Source of the DNA: Chrysomallon squamiferum
Lineage: Eukaryota > Animalia > Mollusca
Assembly: GCA_012295275.1 (NCBI GenBank)
Contig: CM022667.1
Location: 17,856,001 to 17,920,000, forward strand
Direction of reading: 5' to 3'
DNA length: 64,000 nucleotides
Shown here piece after piece: positions 3,983 to 63,045 of this stretch (the stretch's first letter is position 1; every line of letters begins with the position of its first letter). Below the pieces are notes generated by a model. That model was given only the letters and a program-made list of their open reading frames with translations, searched no databases and had not been told where the DNA came from. The translations under genes were made by a program, and so were the position numbers.

Positions 3983-4117
3983 CTTTCTAGATATTCATTG
4001 ACAAGCATGATTATGACAAAAGATTTTCGTTGGGTTCCGCAACAATGTTTGCTTTAGCAAAAATGTATTTGTGTATTTCAGTAAATTCTACTGATAACCC
4101 ATCTAACAGTGTTGACA

Positions 4118-5928
4118 ATGAATCTACAGAGGTACCTGTCTATGACAGTTATGTTGGCCTTGTTTCATCTATCAGGTAATATATAGTTTTTATAGAAACG
4201 TTTGAGAAATAAAGTATGAATAAAGTAAGAAAGGAAGTAATGAAATAATAAAGGAATTAAAATGATATAGAGAAAGAGAAAGAAGGAAGAAAGAAATCGT
4301 TAAATAATCATTTTTGTTTCTTTTTACTGAACATTTTACAACCCACACCAAAGATAGCAATAAAGTTACATTAATATCAGAGAGAGAGAGAGAGAAAATT
4401 AATAACTTTTTAAAAAGCATAATTACTATATGGAAAAGTCTGACGATATTTTTTAAAATACTATAAAAAGTAACCTACAAACAAAATTTTGGTTTTTATT
4501 TTAGGAGAGGTATTCGCCTTGGATACGAGATGTACGGTAGACAACGGCCTTGTTCCTGACCAATCACGATGCGACACGTTTTTAATATGTATCCTCGGCA
4601 ATGTCCGGAGAACGGTCACATGTTCTAACGGACTTCTGTTCGACGCTAAAGAAGGAAAGTGTAACTTCAAAGAAAAGGTGGACTGCGGGAGCAGATCAAG
4701 GAAAAACCCAGGTAAGCTTAACACAATGGAAATAACCGAGGTGACAGTTTCATAAACCTGTCCGTTAAGGAATGTATTACTACAACGACTGCTACTTGAA
4801 TTATATTAATACAACTACAGGTACCGGACCAATTATCCGGCTCCTTGAGGCCTGAGGCATTTCGGATTTCTGGTACAAGGGCATCTAAATAAGTAAATAA
4901 TTAGGCATAAACATTTTAAAATTAAAGACAATTGACGATACACAACTGTGGCGATCGACACGTAAACAATGCAGCGAGTGAATGAACGCCACGCGGCTTG
5001 AAAGAGTAGTTCCGGTCTGATGAGGACAATACCCGCGCGCGCGAACTATGAAAATAACGTCTGGAAGAAACTTCCGGTTTTCTGGTCTTTCCGGAATCAG
5101 GATGCCGGATAATTGATCCGGTCCCTGTACTAACACTGCTGTTGCTTCTTTATCTACTACTTCTAGATTACTACTACTGCTACTACTAGTTCATGTACTA
5201 CTGTTAAGCTGCTACTACTGCTACTCAACTAAATTATTACCATATTTATTTCAAAAATTATGTTCGAAGATAGTGTCAATGAAATTAAGATTGACAACTC
5301 CTTTGTGAAAAGAAATAATAAAGTGAGGTTATCTCCCTTACTTTAATATAGATTTATTTTCTTTTACAAGACAGAAATAGTAGAATAATGTATATCAAAA
5401 TCTCTTTATTTAGGTAATAACATTATCTAACGTTATACTGGCAATATATTGTTTATGTTGGAGTGTCACTAAATACTGAATATTTAGGTCATTATTTGAT
5501 AATAAAACAAATAAAAGTTGAAATTATTTTGCGCAGAGACGGAAACTTGTATACCTTCCGAAATAACAGTCACAATTGTAGCCGAAAACGACCAAGTGGA
5601 ACCTCGATTTGCAATCACTACTTCCCTTTCTGCGCCAAGACAAAGCCTACGTAATTTCCTGTTAATGGCGGCTGGACAATATGAGTCGTTTAGGTACGTT
5701 TGTTTGTGGATTTGACGATAAACAGCTACAAATGAAAAATAATATAAACCGAAATACAATATTATAATAATATATATATTTAAAATCACAGTTTAAAACA
5801 CAGTGCAGATAGTCACGTTGTATTAATACAAAATCTGATTTACTATCTCTGTTGCCAGCTGTTACTCTTATATTTATTTTTTAACCCCTAGCCATGATCC
5901 TTGCTAAATAATTAATCGAATTCAAAAC

Positions 5929-5999
<71 letters not shown>

Positions 6000-6433
6000 T
6001 GTGTGTGAGTGTGTGTTACGGATTTCGAGGTAAAGAACACTCAACATCTGTAATTTTAAAATATTCAAATGGCTGAATTTGTATATATCTCAGGAATTAG
6101 TTTCTCTTCCAATTCAGACAGATATCATTAAGTATGACTCCTAAAGAAATTTTTACTTTCGTTTTTAGGTTCAAATCGCGAGAGATCGGTAGTTTCGGAG
6201 AGTTTGTGACGTCATTCAATGGCCTTGAATCGAACCCAGCAACTCTAACAGCATGGGTTCCATTTTTGTTTTCCGATAAACAAATATCCGAAGGCAAGTT
6301 CTTTAATTTTACTAAATATTTTGTCATCTTCTTCGAATTATATTATTTATTTTCGTTTTTCTTTATTATTATTTTTTTAATTTAATATTGCTAACATAAA
6401 AGACAGTATTTGATTTAAGTAGTTTAATTAGAA

Positions 6434-6479
<46 letters not shown>

Positions 6480-6593
6480 TCAGGAATAAAAACCATAATG
6501 CCTAGGAACAATTCTGTCTACCTGTTTAAGTTTTTCTCGTTTCGAGACGGATGTACAGAGTGCGAGGCGTTAAGCAGACAGATCCTCACATAG
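4118..6593 (+). CDS. Secreted chitin-binding (CBM14/peritrophin-A) protein fused to a transcobalamin-like C-terminal beta domain (DUF4430-like); 5 coding exons, ~218 aa
   Basis: Phase-compatible exons 4118-4175, 4505-4711, 5537-5693, 6169-6293 (GC donor) and 6484-6593. Translation begins with a signal peptide MNLQRYLSMTVMLALFHLSGEVFA. A six-Cys CBM14 follows (CTVDNGLVPDQSRCDTFLICILGNVRRTVTCSNGLLFDAKEGKCNFKEKVDC), then ITVTIVAEN...PRQSLRNFLLMAAGQYESFRFKSREIGSFGEFVTSFNGLESNPATLTAW...ISEGIKTIMPRNNSVYLFKF, which resembles the cobalamin-binding beta-grasp domain. Domain calls are by eye. Confidence 0.8.
4818..5127. mobile_element. Non-autonomous Tc1/mariner-pogo-type MITE, copy 1 (in intron 2 of the chitin-binding gene)
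   Basis: TIRs CAGGTACCGGACCAATTATCCGG ... CCGGATAATTGATCCGGTCCCTG, flanked by TA on both sides. A homologous inverted copy lies at 50478-50794. Confidence 0.85.
5931..6015. repeat. (GT)n microsatellite
   Basis: Directly visible. Confidence 0.95.
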
Positions 6594-6705
6594 ACCGTGC
6601 AGCTTACACATTTTATATTTTTAGTGTGGATAATGAAATTAATATAATGTATGACCAAAGAAAATGATATAAATAGTGTTAATAAACATGCATGTGTCTG
6701 TGATG

Positions 6706-6706
<1 letters not shown>

Positions 6707-6767
<61 letters not shown>
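6707..6767. repeat. (CT)n microsatellite
   Basis: Directly visible. Confidence 0.95.
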
Positions 6768-6771
<4 letters not shown>

Positions 6772-7592
6772 TGAATGTGATTATATGTTTGTGTGTGCGT
6801 GTGTATATGTATATATCTGTATATGTATATCTATACACACAAACAACACATACACACGCATACATACGTACATTTATATAATTCATATATTATGTGGATA
6901 TCAATGGTAGAAAACATACACACACGATTATATTGCATTTATCTTATTGTGAATGTGTGTGCTCGCGCGCGCGCGCGCTTGTGTATGTTTGATACTATAA
7001 AGTTAAAATTTTGCTATCTCACACAGACATTCATCCAGTTTAATATAAAAATAACGACGCACGCACATCAAAACTAATTATTCTGGCTACCATAATCTGC
7101 GATCACTAATTTGATTCACGAACAAAAACTAGCTTCTGTTCTACATCCGATATTCAGCGTTATTAACAAATGATTGTTACGTCATAGGAAATTACCAAAA
7201 CGAGGCTTCTTTGTGACTGACTTAATAAGGAAGCTGTGCCTACGTATTAATAACAACAATGAATATAAGTCTTTCTTAACAAGCTATTTAATTACGTATA
7301 TTTGATTAGCTAAATATTGGATGTGATATGCAGTAGGGTGTTGTGTTTATAATGAGGGTGGTGTTGTCCGCTGAGACATGTTAATTACGTTATTGTCTTC
7401 AAACACAAAAACGTGTTAGTCAAACATGTAAGTTAATGTACGGTCACAGTAACGTGTAAAATAATAATAGTAAGAAGAAGAAGAAGAAGAAGAACTGGAA
7501 GAAAACGAAGATGATGACGATGGTGATGAAAATGATGTTTAAAAATAGCACAGTGTTTATCGTATCATCCATTTACATTTACTGAAAAATTC

Positions 7593-9487: not shown

Positions 9488-10097
9488 TATCTATCTATCT
9501 ATCTATCTATATATATATATATGCTATTGTGCCAGAGAATAAATAAAATTTTGGCTAATGTGTGCATGCATGCGTGTGTGTATATTTCTGTTGATGTGTC
9601 TGATGAAGTGAAATGAACATATGTATTTGTGAAATGATGATAGATATGTTTCAAGAATTAAACTGATGAGAAATTAAACTACATACAAATTTAATTAACG
9701 AATGCAGATTGGTTTGAATCTTTCTCCGAGTAAGCTGCACATGATTTGAGCAGGCCTGGGAACGACACACCTGTGACAGTTTTTCGATTCTTTACATTCA
9801 TCAGTGTTCTTCCAAACCTTGACAGAAATTCTCTCTTACATACAATTATATGAAAGGTTTTATGTACAACAACAACAACTTTACAACGAAACTGACGTCC
9901 ACAAAAAAAGGAAAGAAAATAGAGGTAGAGAGTTTAGTCTTAATTTTTTCTGTTACACTTTTATTATGAAAGAATGTCTCTAGTAAGAAATAAATAATAA
10001 TATACAAATGGATTTTGTAGGTATCGTGGTATGTATATTAATGTTCGATAAAAATTTCGTTTTCCTCTTTCAGTAACATCTTTGCAGAAAGACAAAC

Positions 10098-12502
10098 ATG
10101 CCGCCTGCAAGCGAACCGGAAACGGAATCAGAGAATTCGTCACTTATTGTTAATTCAACGTCACTGCCGAAACCGGAAATCTCCGAAACAGAACCGGAAG
10201 CGGAAGCAGAAATATGGCCGGAACCAGGTCCGGACTGGACAGTAGCGTTTTCTGCCTGGGGGCCAGCATGGCCTCTTCACGTGTATCTAACTGCAGTTAT
10301 TTTCACGTGCATAACAATACTCGCTCTGTTTCTAATTATAGCCAACGTGTTTAACAAAACGGGACAGAAAAAGAGTAAAACAACAATTTCTCTGAATTCT
10401 ATGATAGCTTTCTTCACTGGGACACGAGCTTGGGTCATGTTCCTGGATCCATACTCGCAGATTCGAGATCCGGTCCCTTTCATTGCCAGTCATTTAATCT
10501 GGTCCATAGGCCTGCCTGGACTCACGGCATCATTTAGCATTGTTTTCCTAATTCTTCTAGACACAACAAAAATGGAGATGGCTCCACCGAAGTTCCAGCG
10601 TCTTGGAACTATTGCCTGGATAACCGGGATCCATCTACTTATAGTGCTTGCTGTGGATTTGCTTGTTATGTTCGTTGGGTTTACAGTAAAACCTCTGTTG
10701 TTGGTGTGCCAGGCTCTGTTCATCGTATATGGCTTGTCGCTGGCTGTAGGCTTTGTCTACACTGCCGTGAAGATTCGTGGAAATCTACAGTCTAGCGGTC
10801 AGGTAAAAGGTGTGTACTGAAATTGTTTTGAGGCTATTAGGTAATTCGTTATTATGTTATTAAGTGTTTACTCATTTAGTTGCTAATCCATTCAGCTATT
10901 CAATTTCTGATTATCGTTTCAGTTACTAATTCACTAATCTATTCAGTTATTAACTTACCTACTAATTCAGTTACTCACTTACTTATTAACCCTTTCAGTT
11001 ACTCATTTACTTATTAATCCATTCAGTTACTCCTTATTCTGTAACCTTTAAGATAAAGAGACGATAGAACAACGCATTATAACAATGAAAAAAGAAACAT
11101 ATAGGAAAGAAAACAGATAGAAGTACAAAACAAAAATTTAATAGACACAGTTTCTAAATTTAAAATAATAATAATAATAATAATAATTAATAAATCGAGT
11201 GTATGACAAACAAAAACGAAAGAAGAGAAATTAAGAAAGAAGCAATAAGGTAATGAAGCAACGAAGAAAATAAGGGAAAAATAAAATGATAAATTTAAAA
11301 GTGAAGAATGACATAAGAAAGAAAGAAAAGAAACAAAGATGGGTACAAAGACAAAAATCAAAATAAAATGAACGAAAGAAAACGAAAACAGATAATAAAT
11401 ATAAAAAATTAAAAAGAAACAGACACAAAAATAAATAAAGAACACATAATTAGTAATCAATAGCTAATGTTGATGATAGTTTTATTTAAATACAAATCAA
11501 TGCTATGGCAATTTGCTAGACGAAGCGACTTAATTCCGCTATTTACAGTCACCGGCTGACATGGAAAGTAAATAAATATTGACTTCGTGTAATCTTTACT
11601 TTAATTTTTTTTTTTGAAAACAGAAATCCGACATGTACAAACCATCGATCATTTTTAGTTTATTTCGATATGTGTATGTCCATGTGTCCACGTTTGGTTT
11701 CGTTGTCTGTATGTCTGAATTTCAGTTTGACTGACTGTCGAGTGAATCTAAGATTATTAAATATTTATACTTTATCAACTGAATTATCCATCTATATTTG
11801 CGCCTGTGTGTCTATCTGTCTAATTACTTATATATCTACCTATCTACCCATATATCCATCAGCCTGTCTACCTATCTGCCTATCTCTCTAGATATATATT
11901 TATCTCCGTCTTTGTGTCTGTCTGTTTGGCTGTCTGCTTTAATTTTAAATCTTTTTTCTTTCTTCTCTCTGCATTTCCTTTACGCATTCATTAATTCATT
12001 ACTTTCTATCCTGTTTTTTTCTGTTTATATATTATTTTGTTTTTTCAAATTATTATTATTATTATTATTATTTATTTATTTATTTGTTCCAGACGAACAA
12101 ACTGAACGTCTGCTGAAACTGACGAGAACTATCGTCCTGGCGGCCGCTATTGCCCTGTCAATGTGTGTCACGTACATCTACTCCGCCGTCAGTGAATTCG
12201 GCGTGTACAGCAGTACCTCCATCATAGAGCCGTGGAGCTGGTGGTCGCTGCAGACGGTGCTGCGGTTGGAGGAAATCGCCTGTTCCATGGTGGTCATAAG
12301 TATATTTGTAAAGACGTCGCCCATGTCGACAATATCTGGTTACTTTTCTCAGCTCTGTCCGGGGATCTCTTCCAAGGTCGGACACCAGAGAGTGAACGAA
12401 GACCGGCCCGAGTTGACGTTGAAACGTCTTGACGGCGTCTCGAAAACCGTGTGGACGACGTCGGTTGTGCAGATAAGTGACGAAGAAAAGCACACAGAGT
12501 GA
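10098..12502 (+). CDS. Proline-rich transmembrane protein 3/4-like (PRRT3/PRRT4 family) multi-pass membrane protein, ~373 aa
   Basis: Coding exons 10098-10809 (AAG|GTGTGT donor, phase 1; the alternative phase-1 donor is at 10797/10798) and 12093-12502 (ttgttccag acceptor). A PE-rich N-terminus precedes the family-like motif WPEPGPDWTVAFSAWGPAWPLHVY and about 7 hydrophobic segments (TRAWVMFLDPY, LIWSIGLPGLTASF, PWSWWSLQTVLRLEE). Upstream acceptor at ~10073. Confidence 0.75.
10870..11040. repeat. Degenerate minisatellite (TTCAGTTACTCAYTTACTTATTAA-like units)
   Basis: Several imperfect TTCAGTTACT-containing units in the intron of the PRRT-like gene. Confidence 0.6.
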
Positions 12503-29864: not shown

Positions 29865-30896
29865 TTAGTAAGATGCTGGATTGATAACGACCTGGTTTTG
29901 TCTGCAGAGGGCGTTATTTAGCTCGTGCATCGCTTTCATAGCTTCTTCACGTGACTCAAACCCGACAACAGCGTTGCCTGTTGGATGTCCGTCTCCTGTA
30001 TAGTGCAGTCTGATAGATTCTGGTACAGGATTGTGACCTTGAAAGAAACCAAGGATTTCTCTTATGGTTACTGACAAAGGAAGATTAGAACATCTCAAGT
30101 AAAACCAGTGTCTTTTCAGAACGCCTGGAGGAATAGGCTTGTTGATCTCACCAGCTCCTACCGGATCAGACATATCCGACATTAAGGGAGGGACGCTGCC
30201 GTGCATAGGATTTCGTCCAATGGGTCCGTACATTGAGACTAGACGTGCTTGTCGCATCCGTGAAACCATTTCCCCTTTTGTACATGTCTCTACTGTTATT
30301 TCATGCTGACCCATTGATTGTTTATCAAGCTGTTTACAGCGTTCTTGCTGTTCTTTAGCCTGGAACTCGAGGAATGCCTCTCCCGTTGGTTTGCCATCAC
30401 CATCATGACAAATTTGTAGTCCCCGAGGAGCTATGGTGACCCCGTGACAGAAATCGCGAATTTCGCGTTGAGTACACTGAGGTGGTAGTCCAGACAAGCG
30501 AACAAAGAACGTTTCGTCCGACTTTCGGCCGTCACTGTCGTTTCTTCTGATTGGCGACTGCATTCTCTTTGCATCGTTATCGGACTGGCGTTTCCCAGTA
30601 ACTGACGAATCTAACTTTCTATTATCAAAATCACCCATATTACTTTCGAACTGCGGGTATTTCTTCCTATGATCTTGTACTTCACTAATGTCATCTTTTG
30701 TGGCTAGGGTTACGCGAATGAGTCTTGGACCCATGGTTCTACATTCACAGGCGAATACTTTCTTCAAATCTTCTGGTGTGGCTACTTCAATATATGCTGT
30801 GCCATTTCCTACACCTTTCTGATCAATATCAATATATATAGCGTCTCCATCATTAACTACATTAACACCAGCCAAAAAGTGACGAATATCCTCCTT
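29865..30896 (-). CDS. RBM12: RBM12-like 3' ORF in the +1 frame (rest of RRM3, RRM4, RRM5); 343 codons continuing from the ACC-TAA-G site
   Basis: Skipping the T at 30897 gives ...LKGLPPKIT/KEDIRHFLAGVNVVNDGDAIYIDIDQKGVGNGTAYIEV, a continuous RRM. Two further RRMs follow: FFVRLSGLPPQCTQREIRDF...GKPTGEAFLEF and FYLRCSNLPLSVTIREILGFF...GHPTGNAVVGFESREEAMKAMHELN. The joined protein would be ~1287 aa. Confidence 0.85.
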   Translation of the reverse strand, partial: KEDIRHFLAGVNVVNDGDAIYIDIDQKGVGNGTAYIEVATPEDLKKVFACECRTMGPRLIRVTLATKDDISEVQDHRKKYPQFESNMGDFDNRKLDSSVTGKRQSDNDAKRMQSPIRRNDSDGRKSDETFFVRLSGLPPQCTQREIRDFCHGVTIAPRGLQICHDGDGKPTGEAFLEFQAKEQQERCKQLDKQSMGQHEITVETCTKGEMVSRMRQARLVSMYGPIGRNPMHGSVPPLMSDMSDPVGAGEINKPIPPGVLKRHWFYLRCSNLPLSVTIREILGFFQGHNPVPESIRLHYTGDGHPTGNAVVGFESREEAMKAMHELNNALCRQNQVVINPASY

Positions 30897-33729
30897 AGGT
30901 TATTTTTGGCGGCAAACCCTTTAAAGCTGCAATGTATGGAGGGGTTGTGGCAAGCGGTGCCTGTTCTTTTGTGGTATCAGATTCACTTGACTTCAGACGT
31001 TTTTGTGGAGTTGACGGGGAATCGCTGTCCGGAATAAAGGAATCCACAGCTTTTTCATAATCTTCTTTAGAACACCGCTGAATATCAACTTTTTTGTCGT
31101 TCATATATGTACCAGACTTTTTCAGTGCACTTAGTAAGTCCATTTCACTAGCGAACTTAATGTAACCTTGTCCTGTTCTTCTACCTCTCTCGTCATTTAT
31201 CAATTTGAGACCATCGAAAGGAATATCAATAGGTGCAAAGAATCGTCTGACTTCACGATATGATACATCTGACGACATGCTGTTAAGTACCACGTGAAAT
31301 GAGCCTCGGATATCGTCTGATCTCATTCTTTTCGAACCTCGACTTTCACTTCTGCTATCTTTATCTCCACTAGATTTTGAATCGCCTCTTGAATCTCTAT
31401 CTGATGAAATCTTCGATTGGCTAGGTCTGGAGTCCCTGTCTCTATCAGAACCACTTTTGGACTCTCTGTCCCTTCGTGACTGTTCTCTGTCGCGGTCTCT
31501 ATCTGAATAGCTTCTAGAATCTCTGTCACTGTAGCGACTGCTACGGTAATGGTCGTCCATTCTTCTTTCTGATCGGTAGTATGAATCTCTACGGTCGTAA
31601 TCTCTGTCCTCATTCCTTCCCTTTGACCGTGACCTGTCGTCTCTCTCACGATAACTTGTGTCTCTTGATGAAAATCGCCCACCATCTGAATTGCCTCGTC
31701 TGCCGTAGCCACCACCAAAGTGCCCATCGTCGGAGCCGCGTGAAGACATTTGTCGTCCCATTGTCCTGGATTCACGTTCGCTATGATCTCTGTTGTCCTT
31801 GTCTTCAGGTGCAGCTTCCACTGATACTGGAGCATCTCCTAGCAAACCTTTACCCGTGTTTACAGGTTTATTCACTGAATGATCGGCATAAGGAGGTCTA
31901 CCGTCTTTCCACTTCTCGTTTACGTCATGCTGCTTAGTTAAGCTGCCTGGAACATCTGAAAATCCAAGTCTCTCAACATCTCGACCAGATGCATCAGGAC
32001 CTAAAACTTTATCCATTAGTGGTACTGGACCTCTGACTAGAGGTCCACCTGGCCTACCTCTTCCACGCCCTTCGGGTGGAAATCGTCCTCCAGGTCCGCC
32101 AAATGGAATTCTCCCACCTGGTCCTGATGGAATATCGCCTTGTCCATCCGATGGAAAGTTTCCTGTTATTGCATCTGCTGGCATTCTAGGCTGTGGTCCT
32201 CTTCCAAATCTATCTGGAGGAAATCGACCTGCGGGTCCATCTGGTGAGTAACCAGTGCCTCTAGGATCAGGTCTAAATCTACCTCGATGACCTTCTGTGG
32301 AATAATGGTCATCTTGGCCAAACTCTTCTCCTGAATGATTTGGAGGAAATCTTTCCAGTGGTCCATCTGCTGGAAATCGAGGTCTAGGTCCATCTAGTGG
32401 AAACCGACCCCTTGGTTCAAATCTTCCTCCCGGACCAAATCTTGTTTCTGGCCTGAATGGTGGACGCAGACCACGTGGTGGTGCACCTGGAACTTGGTTC
32501 ATAGCTTCAAACGAGTCTGAAGGAAATGCACCCTGATTACGAGGAAAACCCGGTCGATACTCAGGATAATTTCCTGAGGCGTTTGCCCCTAATTCATCCA
32601 TATTTGGCCGTGAGAATCCTGTTCTTGGGGCATTTCGAAAATCTCGATCATCAGCAAAATCACTCCCAAATTTGGGGGCTTGTGGAGGTACTGCTGAATC
32701 CTTCCTTAAGTCTGGATCATCCAGGAATGGTCTGCCTTTCTGAAAACCGGGTTCAAAAGAATCTGTAGCCTTCCTGCCAGCTATAAAACCAGCAGCGTCT
32801 TTATACACAGATCCAGGTTTAGGAGGAAATGATCTCTTTTCTGCAGGAAATATCTGTCTACCAAATTCATCAAATTGAGGTATTTCTTCTGGTTCCTCTG
32901 GACCTACCGTGCCTTGACTCCAAGGATCATGACGGGGATGTGTTCCTTCTGCTGATTCATACCTGCCAGGGTGAGGATCTTCTCTTGGTCCTCGTTTTAA
33001 AGGTCCATCAAAATCTACTGGCCAGTTCTTGCTTCTTGGATCTGGTGGGAATGTGTCATCTGCTGGTTTTATACCTGGAGGCCCCCTGAAATCCTTTTTC
33101 AGGCCCGGCATAAATGGTTCAGTTACTGGTCTTGAGGATCTTATTTCTGGTGGCATAGCTCTTGTGTCTTTGGATAATCGATCTCCATCTGGTTGTCCAT
33201 AATTATAATTTCCAGGATCAGGATATATATCACTGTTTCTTGGAAACTTCTTAAAGTCTGCATTCTGTCCTTCGTACCAAGATGATGAATCTTTGTACAC
33301 ATTTCCAGGATCTGGTCTAGGAAAGGGTGCTTTTAGAGATGGTCCCCAACTATTCTCCCTTGTCAAAGGCTCTGGACCGTATGGTTCATTGTCTACTGCT
33401 CTTCCGTGAAGATCTGGCAGTTTGGGAGATGCTTCTGGTACTACCGATCCACTGTTCATAATAGGTGCTCTGGCCTGTTCAATGATGTTTTGCATTTCAG
33501 TTTTACTGCTGAGAAACAATTTGATGACAGAATCACTCAGCATTTCAAAATTTTTGTTCATTGCTTGTCTGGCATCTTCATCTGTGCTGAAGGCAATAAA
33601 GGCATCACCCTTCTCTCCACCGATTATATGTACTCCACCTGCTGGGATGCTGAGACCCTGAAAGAAATTCCGTATGTCCAGTGCACTAGCTGACCATGGA
33701 AGGCCTTGTAGTCTGATTATCACTGACAT
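30895..33729 (-). CDS. RBM12: RBM12/RBM12B-like RNA-binding protein, 5' ORF (RRM1, long Pro/Gly-rich and RD/RS-rich linker, RRM2, start of RRM3), ending at TAA 30897-30895
   Basis: ATG at 33729 lies just after the acceptor ctttacag (exon starts 33738). The N-terminus MSVIIRLQGLPWSASALDIRNFFQGLSIPAGGVHIIGGEKGDAFIAFSTDEDARQAM closely matches RBM12/RBM12B RRM1. The coding region is intronless, as in vertebrate RBM12. Confidence 0.9.
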   Translation of the reverse strand: MSVIIRLQGLPWSASALDIRNFFQGLSIPAGGVHIIGGEKGDAFIAFSTDEDARQAMNKNFEMLSDSVIKLFLSSKTEMQNIIEQARAPIMNSGSVVPEASPKLPDLHGRAVDNEPYGPEPLTRENSWGPSLKAPFPRPDPGNVYKDSSSWYEGQNADFKKFPRNSDIYPDPGNYNYGQPDGDRLSKDTRAMPPEIRSSRPVTEPFMPGLKKDFRGPPGIKPADDTFPPDPRSKNWPVDFDGPLKRGPREDPHPGRYESAEGTHPRHDPWSQGTVGPEEPEEIPQFDEFGRQIFPAEKRSFPPKPGSVYKDAAGFIAGRKATDSFEPGFQKGRPFLDDPDLRKDSAVPPQAPKFGSDFADDRDFRNAPRTGFSRPNMDELGANASGNYPEYRPGFPRNQGAFPSDSFEAMNQVPGAPPRGLRPPFRPETRFGPGGRFEPRGRFPLDGPRPRFPADGPLERFPPNHSGEEFGQDDHYSTEGHRGRFRPDPRGTGYSPDGPAGRFPPDRFGRGPQPRMPADAITGNFPSDGQGDIPSGPGGRIPFGGPGGRFPPEGRGRGRPGGPLVRGPVPLMDKVLGPDASGRDVERLGFSDVPGSLTKQHDVNEKWKDGRPPYADHSVNKPVNTGKGLLGDAPVSVEAAPEDKDNRDHSERESRTMGRQMSSRGSDDGHFGGGYGRRGNSDGGRFSSRDTSYRERDDRSRSKGRNEDRDYDRRDSYYRSERRMDDHYRSSRYSDRDSRSYSDRDRDREQSRRDRESKSGSDRDRDSRPSQSKISSDRDSRGDSKSSGDKDSRSESRGSKRMRSDDIRGSFHVVLNSMSSDVSYREVRRFFAPIDIPFDGLKLINDERGRRTGQGYIKFASEMDLLSALKKSGTYMNDKKVDIQRCSKEDYEKAVDSFIPDSDSPSTPQKRLKSSESDTTKEQAPLATTPPYIAALKGLPPKIT

Positions 33730-34024
33730 TCTCTCTGGCTGTAAAGGAAGCAAAATGTAGATTCATAAATCATCTTATTTTTCACAAAATTTCCACTTCA
33801 TCATCAATAGGATTATACAAGTCTTTTTGTTTTAAGAATTTACTGCCATCTCAAAATGTTTAAAAGTTGTATCTTTCAAAATATTTATAAAATAGATTTA
33901 AACTGCATTGTGTCTAAATAAAACAGATTTTAAATAAATAATGTTCAGTGTAAGATAAAAAACAAAGTTTAAAATTAAAATTTAAAATTAAAATAATTTC
34001 AAGGAAAGTTTGAATATTTATTAC

Positions 34025-45733: not shown

Positions 45734-63045
<17,312 letters not shown>

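What the first reader, a model, noticed from the sequence alone, without database searches (positions are those of the whole stretch)
4118..6593. Unusual fusion: chitin-binding domain plus cobalamin-binding-like beta domain (a possible chitin-tethered vitamin B12 capture protein)
Seen: five short exons, only fragmentary in the ORF track, join in phase into signal peptide + CBM14 + a ~100-aa domain with the pattern V.....SL..FL..AA.....F.F......FGEFVTSFNGL.......W.........EG.....P.N.....F. Known: this pattern resembles the C-terminal beta-grasp domain of transcobalamin/intrinsic factor/haptocorrin (DUF4430-like), and stand-alone beta-domain proteins in zebrafish bind cobalamin. CBM14 anchors proteins to peritrophic, shell or radular chitin. 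Inference: a secreted protein that immobilises a B12 (or other small-ligand) binder on chitinous matrix, for uptake or for withholding it from microbes. I am not aware of a characterised protein with this architecture.
Basis: partly seen in the sequence, partly recalled or inferred. Interest (0 to 1): 0.72.

Follow-up and report, generated by a model that had tools for sequence, protein, structure and literature searches.

The report
Snail chitin-domain vitamin-B12-carrier fusion gene
This five-exon snail gene joins a chitin-binding-type domain to the vitamin-B12-gripping half of the animal B12 carrier proteins, is kept in limpets, abalones, periwinkles and a vent snail, and likely makes a secreted protein that would hold B12-like molecules on a chitinous surface, although neither binding is tested.

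Summary
The gene is real. Five exons at 4118-6593 (one GC-AG intron) give 218 aa, 71% identical across all junctions to a Gigantopelta aegis RefSeq protein. Orthologues with the same layout occur in 7 named gastropod species and one unnamed contig. Exon 2 is CBM14. The C-terminal domain is a true transcobalamin/intrinsic-factor beta domain: profile E 4e-7 to human intrinsic factor, predicted-model Z 16.8-18, and two internal introns at the same codons and phases as in human TCN2. The alpha domain is absent, with a phase 1-1 CBM14 exon in its place; an abalone RefSeq isoform lacks that exon. Function is untested. The two pocket aromatics and the Trp are kept in 8 of 8, but an invariant Pro and a variable Gly alter the pocket, conservation peaks on the helix away from it, and a gastropod CBM14 protein (EHEP) does not bind chitin. 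An invariant, probably unpaired Cys suggests a dimer. My paper searches and this scan's notes showed no such architecture; Burroughs 2007 proposed the tethered-scavenger design for prokaryotes. Verdict: new variant of a known kind.

The parts
4118..4175 (+). Exon 1: start codon and likely signal peptide (aa 1-20), phase-1 donor
   Evidence: hydropathy 1.93; in-frame stop upstream of the ATG
4505..4711 (+). Exon 2: CBM14/peritrophin-A module (six Cys, aa 29-80 = 4531-4686); symmetric phase 1-1, can be skipped in frame
   Evidence: Pfam PF01607 E 1.2e-11; skip keeps frame, 149 aa; Haliotis rufescens isoform X2 lacks the matching 72 aa
4816..5129 (.). MITE-like repeat in intron 2 (40-nt terminal inverted repeats); not part of the coding gene
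   Evidence: very high contig depth in run X1 and present in X2-X4
5537..5693 (+). Exon 3: linker with invariant Cys93 (5548-5550), beta-domain strands 1-2 and helix (aa 89-141); counterpart of TCN2 exon 7
6169..6293 (+). Exon 4: transcobalamin-type insert hairpin (Phe150 6194-6196, Phe153 6203-6205), Trp170 and Pro172 (6254-6262), up to Gly183; counterpart of TCN2 exon 8
6294..6483 (+). Intron 4, GC-AG type
   Evidence: junction agrees with P0001
6484..6593 (+). Exon 5: last beta-domain strand, C-terminal Cys pair and helix, stop codon
6681..6686 (+). Candidate polyadenylation signal
   Evidence: only AATAAA/ATTAAA in the ~1 kb after the stop; untested

Best explanation
The gene encodes a CBM14 domain fused to a transcobalamin/intrinsic-factor beta domain without the alpha domain; the protein is likely secreted, likely binds cobalamin or related corrinoids through the beta domain, and would be held on a chitinous matrix by the CBM14. 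Shown: gene model, both domain identities, descent from the animal carrier family, and single-copy conservation across four gastropod lineages. Inferred origin: a beta-only carrier gene gained a phase 1-1 CBM14 exon between the signal exon and the beta exons, and skipping that exon would give a free carrier. Inferred mechanism: the odd, invariant Cys93 and the highly conserved helix face would link two copies, adding avidity and partly standing in for the missing alpha domain. The bound vitamin would then be taken up by, or withheld at, the epithelium under the chitin (gut lining, radular or other cuticle; site unknown).
For: Fold: profile of five orthologous C-terminal domains hits human intrinsic factor at E 4.4e-7 and bovine transcobalamin at E 0.032, the only 3 sequences hit among 177,635. 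AlphaFold models of the Gigantopelta and Patella orthologues match intrinsic factor at Z 16.8 (rmsd 1.5 A, 104 aa; next unrelated fold 7.5) and Z 18.0 (1.4 A, 106 aa). Descent: introns split Arg141 in phase 2 and Gly183 in phase 1; human TCN2 introns 7 and 8 follow c.1106 (phase 2, mature codon 351) and c.1222 (phase 1, mature codon 390), and the alignment puts Arg141 and Gly183 on these residues (bovine-to-human offset of 5 taken from chain lengths 414 and 409). Pocket: both hairpin aromatics named as corrinoid contacts in haptocorrin (PMC4350170, PMC3331988) are Phe/Tyr in 8 of 8 orthologues, and Trp170 is invariant. An isolated human beta domain binds cobalamin and cobinamide (PMC5599065); beta-only zebrafish proteins bind cobalamin tightly (review PMC10778862). 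Most hairpin contacts are backbone-mediated, so low side-chain conservation is expected (PMC1796856). The genome has an intron-containing methylmalonyl-CoA mutase gene, so the animal likely needs B12. Cys counts from residue 27 on are odd in 11 of 11 sequences.
Against: Pro172 is invariant (8 of 8) and aligns without a gap to bovine TC Val384/human Leu379. From recall of the TC structure (paper not held), that backbone NH hydrogen-bonds a corrin amide, and Pro would remove it; against intrinsic factor the profile places a gap there, so the register is not certain. The Gly matching TC Gly390 is kept in only 4 of 8, and the Gln after the Trp in 1 of 8. Invariance is 10 of 22 in the helix segment 121-142 against 6 of 50 in the ligand-facing 143-192 (segments chosen after seeing the data), and the helix is not ligand-anchored in TC (PMC11107200). 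Isolating the TC domains lowers affinity. EHEP, a gastropod gut CBM14 protein and the top PDB sequence hit of P0001, and Der p 23 do not bind chitin (PMC10619976). The aromatic after the fifth Cys is Phe here and His in abalones, where aligned chitinases have Trp or Tyr.
Confidence: 0.45

Rival explanations
1. Repurposed scaffold: the beta domain has lost or weakened corrinoid binding and serves as a dimerisation or protein-docking module of a chitin-matrix protein (radula, cuticle, shell or operculum matrix), cross-linked through Cys93.
For: Conservation peaks on the helix face rather than the pocket; invariant Pro172 and variable Gly183; odd invariant Cys. An intrinsic-factor-like protein was listed among chiton radular cusp proteins (1 peptide per analysis, no chitin domain listed; PMC6351634).
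Against: Both exposed pocket aromatics stay aromatic in 8 of 8 across four gastropod lineages. The Lottia orthologue id was not found in 12 supplementary files of a Lottia shell proteome (identifiers may differ).
Confidence: 0.3
2. Soluble corrinoid carrier whose CBM14 does not bind chitin but caps the pocket in place of the alpha domain, or binds mucus, polyphenols or a receptor, as EHEP binds tannins.
For: EHEP and Der p 23 lack chitin binding and are the best CBM14-side structural matches (Z 7.1 and 6.3-7.0); the CBM14 exon sits where the alpha exons sit in TCN2.
Against: The linker is low-confidence in both models (pLDDT<50; pTM 0.56 and 0.59), giving no sign of a fixed interdomain pocket. 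Chitin-binding Avr4, tachycitin and chitotriosidase domains score within about 1.5 Z of those (5.6-6.7).
Confidence: 0.2
3. Prediction artefact: the CBM14 exon and the beta-domain exons belong to separate genes.
For: No RNA evidence from this species; one RefSeq isoform lacks the CBM14 exon.
Against: The same fused protein is annotated in 7 named species; an unnamed 1,526-base Logan contig encodes the whole 220-aa protein, which looks like a spliced transcript; the tree follows gastropod groups.
Confidence: 0.02

Closest known systems
Beta domain of human gastric intrinsic factor, transcobalamin and haptocorrin (PDB 2pmv, 3kq4, 2bb6, 4kki, 5np4)
   Same: Same fold with the insert hairpin (Z 15.6-18.0, rmsd 1.4-2.0 A), same two internal introns as TCN2, haptocorrin-type aromatic pair
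   Different: No alpha domain; CBM14 instead; invariant Pro after the Trp, an extra invariant Cys and a strongly conserved helix motif; 16-24% identity
Beta-only carriers: zebrafish Tcnba/Tcnbb, and a 157-aa mostly molluscan DUF4430 cluster in the ESM Atlas
   Same: Secreted-type beta domain without alpha domain; Atlas cluster TM 0.79 to residues 90-220; the CBM14-less abalone isoform has this layout
   Different: They carry no CBM14 (known from review text, and from the cluster's Pfam line); their pocket residues could not be compared here
Prokaryotic transcobalamin-like SLBB domains fused to polysaccharide-binding domains (FIVAR, fasciclin, Ig; Burroughs et al. 2007, PMC1796856)
   Same: Proposed there as polysaccharide-tethered B12 scavengers, the same design
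   Different: Prokaryotic, other tether domains, itself a prediction; this gene has animal-family introns. The words chitin and mollusc do not occur in that paper's main text
EHEP of Aplysia kurodai (PDB 8in3) and other CBM14/peritrophin-A proteins
   Same: Six-Cys CBM14 fold; gastropod secreted protein
   Different: EHEP has three CBM14 domains and no beta domain, and binds polyphenols, not chitin

Membership tests
CBM14 / peritrophin-A (PF01607) | Pfam match above the cut-off with six Cys | tested here: met
   45 bits vs cut-off 22.1; six Cys invariant in 8 of 8
CBM14 / peritrophin-A (PF01607) | Binds chitin | not testable with these tools
   Not universal in the family; aromatic after Cys5 is Phe/Tyr in 6 of 8 and His in 2 of 8
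Transcobalamin-like SLBB beta-grasp clade (DUF4430) | Beta-grasp fold with a beta-hairpin insert after the helix | tested here: met
   Models of two orthologues; Z 16.8 and 18.0 to intrinsic factor. The window's own spliced protein was not folded
Transcobalamin-like SLBB beta-grasp clade (DUF4430) | Conserved hydrophobic hairpin position that stacks on the cobalamin base | tested here: met
   Positions 150 and 153 aromatic in 8 of 8; feature described
Transcobalamin-like SLBB beta-grasp clade (DUF4430) | Pfam PF14478 above the gathering score | tested here: inconclusive
   Met in the Patella orthologue only; no hit in window exons or P0001; 2 of 9 at E<=1
Transcobalamin-like SLBB beta-grasp clade (DUF4430) | Two conserved SLBB glycines (after strand 2; in the turn before strand 3) | tested here: inconclusive
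   The Gly after strand 2 of IF/TC aligns near an invariant Gln124, with no Gly here; Gly159 is kept in 7 of 8; the mapping to the paper's figure is my inference
Animal cobalamin carriers (TCN1/TCN2/CBLIF family) | Shared exon structure of the beta domain | tested here: met
   Same codons and phases as TCN2 introns 7 and 8; preceding intron phase 1 as after c.940
Animal cobalamin carriers (TCN1/TCN2/CBLIF family) | [quoted passage not shown] | tested here: not met
Beta-only cobalamin binders (Tcnba/Tcnbb type) | Measured cobalamin binding | not testable with these tools
   Pocket evidence mixed

The most novel reading that the evidence does not exclude
Gastropods share an undescribed matrix-anchored corrinoid trap: a disulfide-linked dimer of CBM14-beta-domain proteins that holds B12 and cobinamide-type analogues on chitin without any alpha domain, with alternative splicing of the CBM14 exon switching between a tethered trap and a free carrier.
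Probability: 0.25. Interest if true: 0.75.

Novelty: new variant of a known kind. Interest (0 to 1): 0.52.

Why it matters
How invertebrates capture vitamin B12 is little studied compared with vertebrates (my own knowledge). A small, single-copy protein conserved from limpets to periwinkles gives a direct test in abalone or Lottia. If it binds both chitin and corrinoids, it is an animal version of the tethered scavenger so far only predicted for prokaryotes, and a candidate for vitamin uptake from, or competition with, surface and gut microbes. If it does not bind B12, it shows a vitamin-carrier domain re-used as a matrix module. The shared introns also make it a clean case of exon shuffling in the B12-carrier family.

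Tried and rejected
RNA evidence: no RNA holder was listed for 4000-6800. The three RNA runs added by study covered only the intron-2 repeat; this is no evidence for or against expression. Alpha-domain search: PF01122 in G000 gave no match, but the control also rang nowhere, so it is uninformative. PF14478 in G000 gave one E 0.98 hit with stops, which is noise. Paralogues: the beta-domain profile found only the three window exons in G000; intron-split divergent paralogues may be missed. Range: no hit outside gastropods, but one search listed only 150 of 938 hits, mostly CBM14 repeats, and depends on shared 5-mers, so a wider range is not excluded. Vent or symbiosis speciality: rejected, since shallow-water grazers have orthologues. 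Recent bacterial transfer: rejected by the shared introns. Gene cluster: no CBM14 or B12 gene was seen among 13 long window ORFs scanned, and no beta-domain match in 20 kb upstream. Atlas feature search on the whole protein gave no usable hit; on residues 90-220 it scored 0.84, a lead only. Four primary papers were not held (Benoit 2018, Furger 2013, Wuerges 2006; searches cover three papers), so the residue-level hydrogen-bond map is recalled. A search for those residue names found nothing.

Full report
Observation. Intron 4 is GC-AG with a strong donor; the two GT alternatives nearby give truncated products. A search with exon 4 alone found a 220-aa NCBI protein of Gigantopelta aegis (2 hits among 11 candidates), which aligns to the spliced model at 71% identity over 202 aa with no gap at any junction. 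The window's gene groups with it at 100/99 support, so the window is probably from a related gastropod. The gene is single copy by the searches run in G000.

Range. A search of 1.84 billion representatives with P0001 gave 938 hits, of which 150 were listed; 5 of the 150 covered both domains and 2 were exon-4 fragments. A profile of five C-terminal domains found 9 proteins among 825 candidates. Named holders are G. aegis, Haliotis cracherodii, H. rufescens, H. asinina, Patella caerulea, Lottia gigantea and Littorina saxatilis; sources call them uncharacterised, hypothetical or 'chitin-binding type-2 domain-containing'. One unnamed 1,526-base Logan contig encodes the whole protein and groups with Littorina. 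No non-gastropod hit appeared, within the limits given under Tried and rejected. H. rufescens has a RefSeq isoform lacking 72 aa that span the CBM14; in the window, skipping exon 2 also keeps the frame.

Domains. Exon 2 is CBM14. The C-terminal domain escapes Pfam DUF4430 in this species and in Gigantopelta but passes the cut-off in Patella. The orthologue profile hits only intrinsic factor (two entries, E 4e-7) and bovine transcobalamin (E 0.032) among PDB sequences. I could fold only database orthologues, not the window's spliced protein. The Gigantopelta model (mean pLDDT 73.6) has intrinsic factor, transcobalamin and haptocorrin as top Foldseek hits and Z 16.8, rmsd 1.5 A over 104 residues to intrinsic factor, the next unrelated fold being 7.5. 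The Patella model (pLDDT 77.0) gives Z 18.0. The Atlas adds a 157-aa, mostly molluscan DUF4430 cluster at TM 0.79.

Gene structure as independent evidence. Human TCN2 variant names place introns after c.940, c.1106 and c.1222, and exon 8 between the last two (passages of PMC6373502 and PMC9682804). These are phase 1, phase 2 at mature codon 351 and phase 1 at mature codon 390 (the last two computed, using an 18-residue signal recalled and consistent with the numbering). The window's introns 2-4 are phase 1 in the linker, phase 2 in Arg141 and phase 1 in Gly183. In the alignment these residues fall on bovine Arg356 and Gly395, that is human 351 and 390 with an offset of 5 from chain lengths. 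The domain therefore descends from the animal carrier family, and a symmetric CBM14 exon lies where TCN2 has its alpha-domain exons. Gain of the exon by a beta-only gene is my inference; replacement of alpha exons is not excluded.

Does it bind B12? Counts are over 8 sequences (window, P0001, P0008, P0153, P0012, P0015, P0154, P0021; left out: near-identical P0151, same-locus P0155, isoform P0152, fragments P0002 and P0069). For: positions 150 and 153, which match the two bulky residues that haptocorrin has and that intrinsic factor and transcobalamin have singly (PMC4350170 parts 1-3 of 4; PMC3331988 passages), are aromatic in 8 of 8; Gly151, Val154 and Trp170 are invariant. The human beta domain alone binds cobalamin and cobinamide (PMC5599065 Results and Discussion), and beta-only fish proteins bind tightly (one passage of review PMC10778862; the primary paper was not held). 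Against: Pro172 is invariant at a position where, from recall, transcobalamin offers a backbone NH to the corrin; Gly183 is kept in 4 of 8; the Gln after the Trp in 1 of 8. The most conserved stretch is the helix segment 121-142 (10 of 22 invariant against 6 of 50 in 143-192; Fisher p 0.004, post hoc), a part that the ligand does not anchor in rat transcobalamin (PMC11107200 sections 4 and 8). That points to a second interface. Cys93 is invariant, and the Cys count from residue 27 on is 9, 7 or 3 in all 11 sequences counted; the C-terminal two Cys come and go as a pair, so Cys93 is probably free to link chains. The dimer could not be tested.

Does it bind chitin? The six Cys and the G-L-x-F/Y core (Gly replaced by Asp in 2 of 8) are kept, but CBM14 does not guarantee chitin binding: EHEP of the sea hare, the best PDB sequence hit, and Der p 23 lack it (passages of PMC10619976). 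No expression data were found: the Lottia id is absent from the full-text library and from 12 supplementary files of PMC3374290; a limpet radula paper does not mention cobalamin or intrinsic factor in its main text (PMC9263180; supplements not read). A chiton radula proteome lists an intrinsic-factor-like protein by one peptide (PMC6351634 passages and supplement), and a pearl-oyster mantle study lists transcobalamin-2-like genes (PMC7998362 passages); both are leads only. The genome has methylmalonyl-CoA mutase exons, and G. aegis is reported to depend on its symbionts for B12 (PMC7895826 section 11), but the gene is no vent speciality.

Novelty. Searches on cobalamin/chitin-binding/transcobalamin/invertebrate, on intrinsic factor/mollusc/DUF4430/shell matrix, on DUF4430, on gastric intrinsic factor with gastropod tissues and on the SLBB clade showed no paper on this architecture; I saw listings for most and read the papers named above. 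Most subscription journals are not covered. This scan's notes had no match by words, place or sequence; other beta-domain notes exist. Burroughs 2007 (passages and section 7 part 1) already proposed prokaryotic transcobalamin-like domains tethered by polysaccharide-binding domains as B12 scavengers, and warned that other ligands are possible. So this is a new architectural variant of the beta-only carriers: it works like a tethered corrinoid binder with probability about 0.45, and it is not a canonical two-domain carrier.

Noticed in passing
window 4816-5129: MITE-like element in intron 2: 40-nt terminal inverted repeats, 80% complementary; summed contig depth up to about 78,000 against about 32 for flanks in run X1, so very high copy.
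   Followed up: partly
window 10077-12502 (+): Two exons of a multi-pass membrane protein with a Pro/Glu-rich N-terminal part; no Pfam hit at E 0.01. Resembles PRRT3/PRRT4-type proteins (name from recall).
   Followed up: partly
window 29865-33762 (-): Two long ORFs (344 and 955 aa) overlapping by a few bases, both with RRM_1 hits: a large-exon RNA-binding protein gene; the join between them was not examined.
   Followed up: no
window 53853-55828 (-): Purple acid phosphatase exons: N-terminal domain and metallophosphoesterase domain.
   Followed up: no
G000:C9:24062316-24067772 (+): Intron-containing methylmalonyl-CoA mutase gene, 10 matching pieces.
   Followed up: no
L006:3686-4771 (-): 362-aa stop-to-stop frame about 9 kb upstream of the gene, low-complexity at its start; possibly an exon of the upstream neighbour.
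   Followed up: no
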